Virus record (IMG/VR): IMGVR_UViG_3300014205_000228
Coordinates: 1,734-65,733 of that record
Reading direction: 5' to 3' (one strand)
Length of the DNA stretch: 64,000 nucleotides
From: a virus
Lineage: Duplodnaviria > Caudoviricetes
In this document: piece by piece, positions 5,802 to 7,992 of the stretch
Position numbering within the stretch: the first letter of the stretch is position 1
Layout of the letters: the number at the start of each line of letters is the position of its first letter
The notes under the pieces: model-generated
What the model was told of the DNA's origin: nothing
The model's database searches: none
The model's input: the letters and a program-made list of their open reading frames with translations, nothing else
Position numbers and translations under genes: made by a program

Positions 5802-6031
5802 TGGCTAAACTTACCTTAACCAAAGCCCAAAGATGGGCAAGAGAACGTAACACTGCTAAAGGTCAGATCAGTGCAATGACCTCCCTTAGTAGGATGGTAG
5901 CAGATAAGGCTTCCATACTTTCTCACGAAAAGGAAGCTCTTCAGGCAATTATTGTGGTGCTTGGAAAGATCTTGGGAGATTGGAAGGATAACGAAAGTCT
6001 GTCAAAAACGAAGTATTTTAACTTGAAATAA
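5801..6031 (+). CDS. hypothetical basic protein
   Basis: TAATG coupling to nuclease; start moved to ATG 5801. Confidence 0.6.
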   Translation: MAKLTLTKAQRWARERNTAKGQISAMTSLSRMVADKASILSHEKEALQAIIVVLGKILGDWKDNESLSKTKYFNLK

Positions 6032-6033
6032 AT

Positions 6034-6158
6034 GAAAGTGGTGGTGTAGTGGTTAGCACGCGAAAATTTCCTTATTCGACTTTTCCCCGAAAGGTGGCGC
6101 AGAATAGGGTTACTTCAATTAGGATGACGAGACGCAGGTTCGATTCCTGTCCACTTTC
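6034..6158 (+). ncRNA. Y-RNA/tRNA chimera 1 (tRNA scaffold, Ro helix in place of anticodon arm)
   Basis: Acceptor (G)AAAGTGG/CCACTTT(C); D-arm GTGTAGTGGTTAGCAC; T-arm GCAGG-TTCGATT-CCTGT; insert CCCTTATTC-GACTTTTCC-CCGAAAGG-TGGCGCA-GAATAGGG-TTACTTC. Confidence 0.8.
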
Positions 6159-6168
6159 TTCAGTATTT

Positions 6169-6299
6169 AGATCGGTAGCTCAGTTGGTAGAGCAAAAGAC
6201 CAAAAAGACCTTAACCGCTTATTCTCCGAAAGGTAGCGAAGGTTATGGATACTTCAAACAAACTTTGGACCGTGGGTTCGAGTCCCACCCGATCTACCA
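6169..6299 (+). ncRNA. Y-RNA/tRNA chimera 2 with encoded CCA
   Basis: Acceptor AGATCGG/CCGATCT-A-CCA; D-arm GCTCAGTTGGTAGAGC; T-arm GTGGG-TTCGAGT-CCCAC; insert CCTTAACC-GCTTATTCT-CCGAAAGG-TAGCGAA-GGTTATGG-ATACTTC. Confidence 0.85.
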
Positions 6300-6304
6300 A
6301 AACT

Positions 6305-6369
6305 TGCTGATGGCGAAGATTACAGTTACTTCTTTGGCGAAAAATACTGTAATCGTTTATTCCTCAGCA
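6305..6369 (+). ncRNA. minimal Y-RNA-like RNA 3
   Basis: TGCTGA-TGGCGAA-GATTACAG-TTACTTC...CTGTAATC-GTTTATTCC-TCAGCA. Confidence 0.75.
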
Positions 6370-6385
6370 TTATTTAAGATTTAAA

Positions 6386-6476
6386 GCAGGTGGCGTAAAC
6401 TATGGATACTTCGGTTAAGACCAGCAATGGTTGCCAAGATCAAACTTGGCTACTCCTTAGTTGCCTGTTCCCCTGC
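6386..6476 (+). ncRNA. Y-RNA-like RNA 4
   Basis: GCAGG-TGGCGTA-AACTATGG-ATACTTC...CCTTAGTT-GCCTGTTCC-CCTGC. Confidence 0.75.
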
Positions 6477-6489
6477 CCTTCAGCATAAT

Positions 6490-6560
6490 AACGTAACTCT
6501 GCAGAGAGGCACTGTGTACGCTCAGACCGAGCAGAAAGTGCAAACCTCCGGAGTTACGTT
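6490..6560 (+). ncRNA. long hairpin RNA without the Ro motif
   Basis: AACGTAACTC/GAGTTACGTT 10-bp stem with nested GAG/CTC, GCAC/GTGC, GCTC/GAGC stems. Confidence 0.55.
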
Positions 6561-6566
6561 TTAAAG

Positions 6567-6643
6567 AAATGAGTGGCGAAAATTTCAGGTACTTCCTGTT
6601 AAGAAGGCCGAAAGGCTTCCTGAAATTGATTGTTCCCTCATTT
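6567..6643 (+). ncRNA. Y-RNA-like RNA 5
   Basis: AAATGAG-TGGCGAA-AATTTCAGG-TACTTC...CCTGAAATT-GATTGTTCC-CTCATTT. Confidence 0.75.
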
Positions 6644-6675: not shown

Positions 6676-7992
6676 ATGGCGAAGATCAACACCGCAGCAA
6701 AAGCAATTCCTGTTTACACTCACGAAGGAGCAAAAGCATCACTTCACGTAAATGCTTATCAAATGCTTCGAAGATCAGTGTGTTCCTGTATGCTTTGGGA
6801 AAGAGAGTTTTATGAGGATGGAGAAACCATTGCTTCAAGAATTGCTTCTTTGATTAAAGAAGTCGATCCTAACAAAGTTGCTGAACTGGCAGTAGAAGCA
6901 AGAGAGAAATTCAAACTTCGGCATGTTCCTCTTCTTCTTGCCAGAGAATTGGCTAGACAAGGATATAAAGAAACTGCTATGGTTCTTAATAGAGTAATAC
7001 AAAGACCTGATGAATTAACAGAGTTTTTGGCTATCTATTGGAAAGATGGTAGATGTCCTTTGTCTGCACAGATAAAGAAAGGATTAGCAAAAGCCTTTAC
7101 CAAATTTACTGCGTATAGTTTAGCTAAGTATAATCGAGACGATAAAATAAAACTTAAAGATGTATTGTTTCTTTCCCACGCAAAACCAGAATCAATTGGA
7201 CAAGCAGCGGTCTGGAAAGAATTAATTGCTGGTACTCTTGAATCTCCTGACACATGGGAAGTTCAGTTGTCTTCTGGTGCTGACAAGAAAGAGACATGGG
7301 AACGCCTTCTTTCGCAGGGTAAACTTGGTGGACTTGCGCTGCTTAGAAATCTTCGTAATATGAAGATGGCTGGTGTTACTACAAGTTTAATTATTGAGGC
7401 AATTAAAGATATTAACACAGAACGAATCCTTCCTTATCGCTTTATCGCAGCCGCACGATATGCTCTTGACCTCGAACCTTATCTTGAGACTGCAATGCTT
7501 AAGTGCATCAAAGACACAAAAAGACTTAGTGGACACACTGTTGTTCTGGTAGATGTGTCTGGTAGTATGGAGGATAAACTATCTTCAAAGTCAAATCTTA
7601 CCAGAATGGATGCTGCTTGCGGAGTAGCAATGGTTCTTAGAGAGTTATGCGAAAGAGCTACTATATTAACATTCTCACAATCTGTTGTGCAAGTTCCTTC
7701 AAGAAGAGGATTTGCTTTAAGAGATATTATTGTTGGTAGTCAAACACATGGATCTACTTATCTTGGTAAAGCAGTAAATGCTGTTTATTCTGAGATTAAA
7801 GATGTAGATAGGTTAATAGTATTTACTGACGAGCAGAGTCATGATCATGTTCCTGATCCTTCTGGAAATGCTTACATAATTAATGTCGCATCTGCTAGAA
7901 ATGGAGTTGGGTATGGCAAGTGGATTCATGTTGACGGATTCTCAGAATCAATAATCGACTGGATTAAAGAGTATGAAACTATTGAAAGGTAA
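6676..7992 (+). CDS. rsr: Ro60/Rsr RNA-binding protein (TROVE + vWA)
   Basis: TROVE motifs (THEG, LRHVPLLL, YSLAKY, TWEVQLS, ALLRNLRN, LPYRFIAA) and vWA MIDAS DVSGS plus IVFTDEQ. Confidence 0.95.
   Translation: MAKINTAAKAIPVYTHEGAKASLHVNAYQMLRRSVCSCMLWEREFYEDGETIASRIASLIKEVDPNKVAELAVEAREKFKLRHVPLLLARELARQGYKETAMVLNRVIQRPDELTEFLAIYWKDGRCPLSAQIKKGLAKAFTKFTAYSLAKYNRDDKIKLKDVLFLSHAKPESIGQAAVWKELIAGTLESPDTWEVQLSSGADKKETWERLLSQGKLGGLALLRNLRNMKMAGVTTSLIIEAIKDINTERILPYRFIAAARYALDLEPYLETAMLKCIKDTKRLSGHTVVLVDVSGSMEDKLSSKSNLTRMDAACGVAMVLRELCERATILTFSQSVVQVPSRRGFALRDIIVGSQTHGSTYLGKAVNAVYSEIKDVDRLIVFTDEQSHDHVPDPSGNAYIINVASARNGVGYGKWIHVDGFSESIIDWIKEYETIER

What the first reader, a model, noticed from the sequence alone, without database searches (positions are those of the whole stretch)
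6034..6158. Second tRNA-Y chimera carries a tRNA-His-like G-1:C73 pair and lacks encoded CCA
Seen: G6034 can pair with C6158, extending the acceptor AAAGTGG/CCACTTT to 8 bp; no CCA follows; the same CCGAAAGG-capped Ro helix replaces the anticodon arm. Established: G-1:C73 is the main bacterial HisRS identity element and is largely anticodon-independent. Inference: after CCA addition it could be histidylated or sequester HisRS, and the two chimeras may target different synthetases.
Basis: partly seen in the sequence, partly recalled or inferred. Interest (0 to 1): 0.72.

Follow-up and report, generated by a model that had tools for sequence, protein, structure and literature searches.

The report
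Phage Y RNA with tRNA-His-type end
Just upstream of a phage's Ro60 gene lies a tRNA-shaped small RNA whose anticodon arm is replaced by the Ro60-docking hairpin and whose acceptor end has the extra G-1:C73 pair otherwise typical of histidine tRNA. That pair recurs in about a third of related RNAs, so it looks selected, and it may let the RNA be processed, and perhaps charged, like tRNA-His.

Summary
G6034 pairs with C6158 on top of a perfect 7-bp acceptor (6035-6041/6151-6157). TTC follows, not CCA. A CCGAAAGG-capped hairpin with the Y-RNA motifs replaces the anticodon arm, 518 nt upstream of a TROVE/vWA (Ro60/Rsr) gene.

The RNA is a YrlA-type Y RNA in unpermuted tRNA connectivity. This scan has met that layout on other DNA (e1-5798562 and others); I found it in no paper searched.

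New here: among 35 distinct open chimeras from phages, metagenomes and MAGs, 13 have G-1:C73. Only 2 of 350 non-His tRNAs from the same loci do (p=3e-13). C73 goes with G-1 in 13 of 14 cases, while acceptor stems differ throughout. G:C outnumbers C:G 13 to 2. The usual A-U leader before the RNase P site is shifted one base upstream (U-2 in 12 of 14, including T6033), as in real tRNA-His genes.

So G-1 is probably kept by RNase P, and the end mimics tRNA-His. D and T arms are generic, not His-like. Missing CCA is common in the class (24 of 35). The phage encodes no HisRS or CCA enzyme. Histidylation or HisRS binding is plausible but untested; a purely structural or processing role remains a serious rival.

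The parts
6032..6033 (+). Leader A(-3) U(-2), directly after the stop codon (6029-6031) of the upstream 84-aa ORF. Predicted RNase P cut lies between U6033 and G6034.
   Evidence: U-2 occurs in 12/14 G-1 chimeras and A-3 in 10/14, as in real tRNA-His genes of the loci. U-2 is a published determinant of -1 cleavage (PMC3245924). No promoter-like site lies upstream.
6034..6034 (+). G-1, pairs with C6158.
   Evidence: G-1 with C73 in 13/35 open chimeras.
6035..6041 (+). Acceptor stem 5' strand, AAAGTGG.
   Evidence: 7/7 pairs with 6151-6157. Every acceptor pair shows compensatory changes among relatives, though my scanner selected for pairing.
6042..6059 (+). U8, G9 and D arm (GTGT-AGTGGTTA-GCAC) with G18 G19.
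   Evidence: Nearest phage D arms are tRNA-Asp-like, not His-like.
6060..6133 (+). Y-RNA module in place of the anticodon arm. It holds helix 6070-6077/6102-6109, cap CCCC-GAAA-GGUGG (6085-6097), Ro60-type motif GTGGCGCAG (6094-6102), GTTACTTCAA (6109-6118) and the variable-loop-like ATGACGAGAC (6124-6133).
   Evidence: The helix covaries in 35 chimeras (85% paired, 7 of 8 pairs with double changes) and was not selected by the scanner. The motif resembles GNCGAA(N)G of YrlA (PMC4201824). A compensatory 6087/6094 change is seen in a variant strain.
6134..6150 (+). T arm GCAGG-TTCGATT-CCTGT.
   Evidence: 6150T>C in variants turns the G.U pair into G-C.
6151..6157 (+). Acceptor stem 3' strand, CCACTTT.
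6158..6158 (+). C73 (discriminator position), pairs with G6034.
   Evidence: C73 occurs in 14/35 chimeras and in about 1% of non-His tRNAs.
6159..6168 (+). 10-nt spacer TTCAGTATTT with no encoded CCA. It ends in U-1 of the next chimera.
6169..6299 (+). Neighbouring chimera B: U-1 (6168), acceptor AGATCGG/CCGATCT, A73 (6296), encoded CCA (6297-6299), tRNA-Lys(UUU)-like body.
   Evidence: Rfam tRNA 51.6 bits with a 64-nt insert. Real tRNA-Lys contigs match both halves (tables 5/5c). Nearest labelled tRNA is Lys(ttt).
6676..7992 (+). rsr (Ro60 orthologue), the presumed protein partner.
   Evidence: Pfam TROVE 2.2e-18 and vWA_Ro60 2.6e-8. 30 of 35 open chimeras have an rsr homologue on the same strand in the stretch held; it starts 22-913 nt downstream for 25 and upstream for 5.

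Best explanation
6034-6158 is a phage-encoded Y RNA, a partner RNA of the Ro60/Rsr protein encoded 518 nt downstream. It is built in true tRNA connectivity: open acceptor stem, D arm and T arm, with a tetraloop-capped Ro60-docking hairpin where the anticodon arm would be.

Proposed pathway:
1. It is transcribed with the upstream gene and the following Y RNAs, then cut out by host tRNA-processing enzymes.
2. Because G6034 pairs with C6158 and U6033 precedes it, bacterial RNase P most likely cuts between 6033 and 6034. That leaves an 8-bp acceptor with a 5'-phosphorylated G-1, exactly as in pre-tRNA-His.
3. RNase P cutting of the next chimera at 6168/6169 frees a 10-nt trailer. Host enzymes trim it and add CCA.
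4. The mature RNA then shows HisRS the anticodon-independent tRNA-His identity set. It is probably bound, and possibly histidylated, by host HisRS. That would cap and protect its 3' end or tether a translation factor to the Ro60 particle.

Shown: the anatomy, rsr linkage, recurrence and orientation-specificity of G-1:C73, and the shifted leader.
Inferred: RNase P register (my odds about 0.6), CCA addition (about 0.5), HisRS recognition or charging (about 0.3).
For: - Anatomy and 8-bp helix.
- TROVE + vWA gene next door.
- 35 distinct open chimeras in viral, genome and metagenome contigs. 30 have rsr on the same strand in the stretch held, including 12 of the 13 G:C ones; L144 has too little room.
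- The Ro hairpin covaries.
- -1:73 is G:C in 13/35 chimeras against 2/350 non-His tRNAs from the same loci (p=2.6e-13). C73 and G-1 are associated, 13/14 (p=1.3e-7).
- G:C versus C:G is 13:2, against 2:16 in tRNAs (p=1.7e-5). This argues against mere stability.
- The 13 G:C chimeras carry 13 different acceptor stems.
- U-2 occurs in 12/14 G-1 chimeras (p=1e-6). This reproduces the A-U|G leader of genuine tRNA-His genes in the loci, while other chimeras and tRNAs have A(-2)U(-1)|.
- Three RNase-P-type long-loop closed YrlAs with C73 all have G-1.
- Literature: G-1:C73 plus U-2 direct RNase P to -1, and HisRS reads chiefly G-1 and charges microhelices (PMC3245924; PMC4357726).
- M. smegmatis YrlA is cut by RNase P and receives CCA in vivo (PMC4201824).
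- Strain variants keep 6034/6158.
Against: - There is no direct evidence for the 5' end, CCA addition, HisRS binding or charging.
- The closest Rsr relative (L002, 72%) has G-1 but A73 and two acceptor mismatches.
- Orthologue-like pairs switch the pair on the same acceptor: L010 U:A against L043b G:C, and L068 U:A against L077 C:G. Overall pairing is enriched (30/35 against 58% in tRNAs, p=1e-3). Both fit selection for an 8th base pair as such.
- D and T arms are generic, with no other His feature.
- There is no anticodon, and it contributes to HisRS recognition in some bacteria.
- The host is unknown. The chimeras are related sequences, so the counts are not fully independent, and the tree is unresolved.
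- The Y module might clash with the HisRS anticodon-binding domain.
Confidence: 0.5

Rival explanations
1. Structure or processing only. The 8th pair is selected to close and stabilise the helix end of a non-decoding RNA, to set or damp RNase P and 3'-exonuclease action, or to hide the discriminator so that no synthetase charges it. HisRS plays no part.
For: - Pairing at -1:73 is enriched overall (30/35 against 202/350).
- Relatives swap U:A for G:C or C:G on the same acceptor.
- Closed YrlA acceptor hairpins in the same loci are most often 8 bp (45 of 139), with C:G or A:U as the 8th pair.
- Most chimeras lack an encoded CCA (24/35).
- Published YrlAs have no free CCA end (10.1101/312249).
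Against: - G-1:C73 outnumbers C-1:G73 13 to 2, although C-1 and G73 are far commoner in tRNAs.
- A73 chimeras show no more pairing than ordinary tRNAs: U-1 in 12/16, C-1 in 4/16.
- The leader shift (U-2) is the specific tRNA-His signature, and it is not needed for stability alone.
Confidence: 0.32
2. Relic. The chimera lineage arose from a phage tRNA-His gene, and G-1:C73 persists by descent without present function.
For: - G:C chimeras cluster loosely with each other in an unresolved tree.
- Phages in this set do carry tRNA-His genes. L034 has both a tRNA-His gene and a chimera.
Against: - Thirteen different acceptor stems have turned over by compensatory change, while a position outside the mature RNA (-1) stays G in 13/14 C73 copies.
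- D and T arms are the generic YrlA type, not His-like.
- U-2 is conserved as well.
Confidence: 0.08
3. An intron-bearing or decayed tRNA gene, or a chance pair in a pseudo-tRNA. The insert would be spliced out or meaningless.
For: - The Rfam tRNA model aligns the neighbour B with a 64-nt insert.
- A alone scores below threshold (20.7 against 29 bits).
Against: - Removing the insert leaves no anticodon stem-loop.
- The insert carries the conserved Ro60-type motifs and a covarying hairpin.
- It sits next to rsr in 30/35 loci.
- A single-locus chance of 1/16 cannot explain 13/35.
Confidence: 0.03

Closest known systems
YrlA (Y RNA-like A; Rfam RF02553; Chen et al. 2014 PMC4201824; structure in Wang et al. 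2018, 10.1101/312249)
   Same: It is encoded next to rsr/Ro60. It has the Ro60-type 5'-strand motif (G-N-C-G-A-A-like) followed by GTTACTTC. Its D and T arms are nearly invariant and tRNA-like. It shares the ATGACG variable-loop-like motif before the T arm. Presumably it has the same 3D object, an L-shape plus a Ro-binding stem.
   Different: The connectivity is the circular permutation of YrlA. Chain ends lie in an open acceptor stem, and the Ro stem is closed by a GAAA tetraloop. Published YrlAs have their ends in the Ro stem, a closed acceptor hairpin and 'no free CCA end'. The Rfam YrlA model gives only 25.1 bits (gathering 69), and that hit spans the T arm of this RNA and the D arm of the next.
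M. smegmatis YrlA after processing (PMC4201824)
   Same: It has a 7-bp acceptor, is cleaved by RNase P and receives CCA in vivo. This is the precedent for tRNA-type maturation of a Y RNA, and the authors raised possible aminoacylation.
   Different: There the RNA becomes two pieces, because both the acceptor and the Ro stem are open. Here it is one piece. No tRNA-His-type -1:73 pair was described there.
Bacterial tRNA-His (G-1:C73, RNase P cleavage at -1; PMC3245924, PMC4357726)
   Same: It has an encoded G-1 paired with C73, U at -2, an 8-bp acceptor and a canonical T arm. The same A-U-G leader occurs in real tRNA-His genes of the related loci.
   Different: It has no anticodon arm or GUG. 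There is no encoded CCA at this locus. [quoted passage not shown] It fails the tRNA covariance model (20.7 bits).
Histidine-accepting tRNA-like structures of plant RNA viruses and tmRNA (my own knowledge plus the introduction of 10.1101/312249)
   Same: These are non-decoding RNAs whose acceptor end alone recruits CCA-adding enzyme, a synthetase and EF-Tu/EF1A.
   Different: Those are genome 3' ends or ribosome-rescue RNAs. None is tied to Ro60, and their charging is demonstrated, whereas here it is not.

Membership tests
YrlA-type Y RNA (RF02553) | Encoded within a few kb of rsr/Ro60 on the same strand. | tested here: met
   The TROVE/vWA gene starts 518 nt downstream.
YrlA-type Y RNA (RF02553) | Ro60-binding motif GNCGAA(N)G near a helix strand. 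| tested here: inconclusive
   GGCGCAG at 6096-6102 matches 5 of 6 fixed positions. The GTGGCG..GTTACTTC motif is shared with 139 closed YrlA-like RNAs in the loci. Binding was not tested.
YrlA-type Y RNA (RF02553) | tRNA-like D and T arms. | tested here: met
YrlA-type Y RNA (RF02553) | Ends in the Ro stem, acceptor closed by a loop (permuted tRNA). | tested here: not met
   There is an open 7+1-bp acceptor and a GAAA-capped Ro hairpin. No upstream Ro strand or T arm allows the closed reading.
YrlA-type Y RNA (RF02553) | Reaches the Rfam gathering score. | tested here: not met
   25.1 bits against 69, and the hit bridges two RNAs.
Bacterial tRNA-His | Encoded G-1 paired with C73. | tested here: met
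   G6034:C6158.
Bacterial tRNA-His | U at -2 before the RNase P site. | tested here: met
   T6033. Seen in 12/14 of the class.
Bacterial tRNA-His | GUG anticodon in a 7-nt loop. | tested here: not met
   There is no anticodon arm.
Bacterial tRNA-His | Mature 5'-pG-1 and 3'-CCA; charged by HisRS. | not testable with these tools
   CCA is not encoded (TTC at 6159-61). RNA contigs cannot show ends.
Open-topology tRNA/Y chimeras (uncatalogued; seen earlier in this scan) | 7-bp open acceptor + D arm + capped Ro hairpin + T arm, beside rsr. | tested here: met
   It is one of 35 distinct members found here.

The most novel reading that the evidence does not exclude
A subclass of phage and bacterial Y RNAs are genuine HisRS substrates. 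RNase P leaves G-1, host enzymes add CCA, and the Ro60-bound RNA is histidylated. It would be the first aminoacylated Y RNA. The charge could protect the RNA, recruit EF-Tu or HisRS to the Ro60 particle, or report histidine/tRNA-His status to an RNA-surveillance machine during infection.
Probability: 0.27. Interest if true: 0.88.

Novelty: new variant of a known kind. Interest (0 to 1): 0.68.

Why it matters
Why bacterial Y RNAs copy tRNA has been an open question since 2014. Published YrlAs have a closed acceptor and no CCA, so a link to aminoacylation seemed unlikely.

This family has free tRNA ends. About a third of its members carry the one identity set that a synthetase (HisRS) reads without an anticodon, together with the matching RNase P signal. 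That gives a concrete, cheap hypothesis: the effector recruited by the tRNA-like module is the tRNA-His maturation and charging machinery.

It also shows that phages punctuate Y-RNA arrays with tRNA-processing sites. In addition, it flags tRNA-like genes that annotation pipelines miss or mislabel.

Tried and rejected
- ARAGORN and Rfam at gathering threshold do not call 6034-6158.
- The RNAfold z-score of the single sequence is unremarkable (-0.21), so thermodynamics alone says nothing.
- DNA search of cultured phages with the 900-nt array found only a tRNA-Asn D arm.
- The 5' half resembles tRNA-Asp D arms weakly, not His. D/T-arm nearest neighbours among 420 labelled tRNAs are mixed isotypes. 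There is therefore no evidence of descent from tRNA-His.
- The maximum-likelihood tree of 22 chimeras is unresolved, so independent gains could not be counted.
- Natural test with hosts whose HisRS ignores G-1 (Caulobacter, Brevundimonas, Rhizobium phages): their rsr loci hold only closed forms, so the test is uninformative. crAss001 and cr106_1 have open chimeras of the A73 type only.
- ORF 2162-2944 as a CCA-adding enzyme: no Pfam or PDB match, only a weak PHROG nucleotidyltransferase hit. The phage has no PolyA_pol or HisRS domain.
- Public runs: DNA holders in landfill and groundwater, plus one metatranscriptome contig 5933-6181 of a 96% relative. Contigs cannot show RNA ends or prove transcription.
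- Closed (classical YrlA) reading across A and B: CCACTTT against AGATCGG pairs at only 5/7, so it is rejected.
- A mini-ORF from ATG 6032-6034 (5 codons): no consistent length in relatives, so it is rejected as a by-product of the A-U-G leader.

Full report
**What is there**

The window is a complete 65.7-kb virus record from IMG/VR. ORF 6676-7992 encodes a TROVE + Ro60-vWA protein, that is an Rsr/Ro60 orthologue. The 640 nt before it hold no long ORF. They contain five copies of a GTGGCG..GTTACTTC motif.

The stretch 6034-6158 reads as follows:
- G6034
- acceptor AAAGTGG (6035-41)
- U8 G9
- D arm GTGT-AGTGGTTA-GCAC (6044-59)
- a 74-nt insert (6060-6133)
- T arm GCAGG-TTCGATT-CCTGT (6134-50)
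- CCACTTT (6151-57)
- C6158
- then TTCAGTATTT

G6034 pairs with C6158. T6033 and T6159 cannot pair, so the helix is exactly 8 bp, and no CCA follows. The insert folds as a hairpin. CCTTATTC (6070-77) pairs with GAATAGGG (6102-09). The cap is CCCC-GAAA-GGUGG, and CCGAAAGG lies at 6087-94. The same cap occurs in the neighbour at 6227-34. RNAfold pairs all eight acceptor pairs.

ARAGORN and Rfam do not call this RNA. The Rfam tRNA model gives 20.7 bits with a wrong alignment. The YrlA model gives 25.1 bits for a hit that runs from this RNA's T arm into the next RNA's D arm.

**Identity: a Y RNA in tRNA connectivity**

Published YrlA RNAs are permuted tRNAs. Their ends lie in the Ro60-binding stem, the acceptor is closed by a loop, and there is 'no free CCA end' (PMC4201824; 10.1101/312249). 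Here the breaks are the other way round.

Rsr homologues and a motif scan of viral, genome and metagenome contigs gave about 200 loci. A scanner required a 7/7 acceptor, a D arm, a T arm and the Ro motif in the insert. It found 35 distinct open chimeras. A companion scanner found 139 closed, classical forms.

The Ro hairpin was not used for selection. It is 85% paired, with double changes at 7 of 8 pairs. An rsr homologue lies on the same strand in 30 of 35 loci, and it starts 22-913 nt downstream in 25 of them.

For this RNA no upstream T arm or Ro strand exists that would allow the closed reading. Only L034 is ambiguous in that way. Removing the insert leaves no anticodon arm, so this is not an intron-bearing tRNA.

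This scan has reported the open layout several times on other DNA, including a G-1:C73 copy in a 69.5-kb phage (e1-5798562). I found no description in the papers searched.

**Is the G-1:C73 pair more than chance?**

At one locus the chance of G:C is 1/16. Across the 35 chimeras, -1:73 is G:C 13, U:A 12, C.A 4, C:G 2, U.G 2, G.U 1 and U.C 1.

The control set is 350 non-His tRNAs predicted in the same loci:
- G:C occurs twice (p=2.6e-13).
- C73 occurs in about 1% and G-1 in 4%.

Within the chimeras, C73 goes with G-1 in 13 of 14 (p=1.3e-7). The 13 copies have 13 different acceptor stems, so the stem has turned over while the pair stayed.

Chimeras with A73 have U-1 (12) or C-1 (4), which is the ordinary tRNA distribution. 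The special state is therefore specifically G-1:C73. G:C outnumbers C:G 13 to 2, whereas tRNAs show 2 to 16 (p=1.7e-5). Helix-end stability alone would not predict that.

Three M. smegmatis-type long-loop closed YrlAs with C73 all have G-1 as well.

Strain variants in two DNA metagenomes and one metatranscriptome contig differ at many nearby positions. None differ at 6034, at 6158 or in the acceptor. They show a compensatory 6087C>T/6094G>A change and a 6150T>C repair.

**Processing register**

Ordinary tRNAs and non-G chimeras have A(-2) U(-1) before position +1. G-1 chimeras have A(-3) in 10/14 and U(-2) in 12/14 (p=1e-6), followed by G-1. The clear tRNA-His genes in the loci have the same pattern: A, T, G. 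The window reads A6032 U6033 G6034.

Heinemann et al. state that bacterial RNase P cleaves pre-tRNA-His at -1 because of the G-1:C73 pair and a uridine at -2 (PMC3245924). The stop codon of the upstream ORF ends at 6031, and no promoter-like site precedes the RNA. The 5' end must therefore be made by processing.

I infer cleavage at 6033/6034. The 3' side would be freed by RNase P cleavage of chimera B at 6168/6169, then trimmed and given CCA. M. smegmatis YrlA is the precedent.

Lack of an encoded CCA is normal for the class. It is encoded in 11 of 35 chimeras against 209 of 350 tRNAs (p=0.002). The phage's own tRNA-Pro encodes it. The phage has no HisRS or PolyA_pol-type CCA enzyme. ORF 2162-2944 is not recognisably one. 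Host enzymes would be needed.

**What the end may do**

HisRS recognises chiefly G-1 with its 5' phosphate and the -1:73 pair. The anticodon is a weak determinant, and micro- and minihelices are charged (PMC3245924, PMC4357726). A matured 6034-6158+CCA therefore carries a sufficient identity set, so binding or histidylation by a canonical host HisRS is mechanistically plausible. It is not shown.

**Limits**
- The closest Rsr relative (L002) has G-1 but A73 and a mismatched acceptor.
- L010/L043b and L068/L077 share acceptor sequences but differ by a double change at -1:73.
- Pairing is somewhat enriched overall: 30/35 against 58% (p=1e-3), or p=0.08 without the G:C copies.

A structural or processing-only role for an 8th pair therefore remains a serious rival. 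So does an anti-determinant role that keeps other synthetases off.

The chimeras are related sequences and the tree is unresolved, so the p-values overstate independence. The host is unknown. Cultured relatives gave only A73-type open chimeras (crAss001, cr106_1) or closed forms (Xanthomonas, Caulobacter and Brevundimonas phages), so a host-HisRS correlation could not be tested.

**The neighbour**

Chimera B (6169-6296) has U-1, A73 and encoded CCA. Its body is like tRNA-Lys(UUU): real tRNA-Lys contigs in the same metagenomes match both of its halves, with a normal UUU anticodon loop in between, and its nearest labelled tRNA is Lys. The two chimeras thus differ in type. B has no known anticodon-independent identity, so 'a different synthetase' is not supported.

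**Verdict**

The RNA is a new-topology member of the YrlA kind, and this scan has already seen that topology. Its tRNA-His-type end is a recurrent, apparently selected feature with the matching RNase P signal. Histidylation is a testable hypothesis, not a result.

Noticed in passing
window 6169-6299: Chimera B's two tRNA halves match real tRNA-Lys(UUU) genes of co-occurring organisms at 80% or more; contigs join 6194 to 6270 with a normal CUUUUAA anticodon loop between. B therefore looks built on, or converged to, a tRNA-Lys body with A73 and CCA.
   Followed up: partly
loci L024-L199: Among 139 classical closed YrlA-like RNAs, the acceptor hairpin is most often 8 bp (45) and is closed by a tetraloop. 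Twenty-four have long loops that begin right after position 73, several with CCA. These look like M. smegmatis-type RNase P substrates.
   Followed up: partly
L034:2389-2620 (-): In a tandem array, acceptor strand CCTGGTG can pair either with the preceding unit's CACCGGG (closed reading) or with its own CATCGGG (open reading). This may be an intermediate between the two topologies. The same phage carries a normal tRNA-His with G-1:C73.
   Followed up: no
L205:1480-2440 (Caulobacter phage CcrColossus, JX100810.1): The roughly 900-nt 'empty' gap before the TROVE gene is an array of closed YrlA-like units. The annotated tRNA-Gln (locus 1628-1695) overlaps the T arm and 3' part of one of them and is probably a mis-call.
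   Followed up: partly
L207:4624-4767 (Bacteroides phage crAss001, MH675552.1): An unannotated open tRNA/Y chimera (C-1, A73, no CCA) lies about 270 nt downstream of the TROVE gene of a cultured phage. cr106_1 has the orthologue with U-1:A73. This is a ready experimental system for the topology, though not for the His-type end.
   Followed up: partly
L002:2692-2827: The closest Rsr relative (72%) keeps this RNA's unusual D arm (GTGTAGTGGTCAGCAC), G-1 and an encoded CCA. However, it has A73 and two mismatches in the acceptor. Its 5' strand GGAATGG equals that of L144, which pairs perfectly. This suggests a recombined or decaying 3' strand.
   Followed up: no
window 5933-6181: A 249-nt contig of a freshwater-sediment metatranscriptome covers a 96% relative, from the end of the upstream ORF through chimera A into B. 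It fits co-transcription but does not prove it, since DNA carry-over is possible.
   Followed up: partly
It has only a weak PHROG nucleotidyltransferase hit (E=3e-4).
   Followed up: partly
window 6305-6643: Three further GTGGCG..TACTTC modules without D or T arms lie between chimera B and rsr. The locus therefore encodes about five Y-like RNAs of two layouts in one probable transcript.
   Followed up: no
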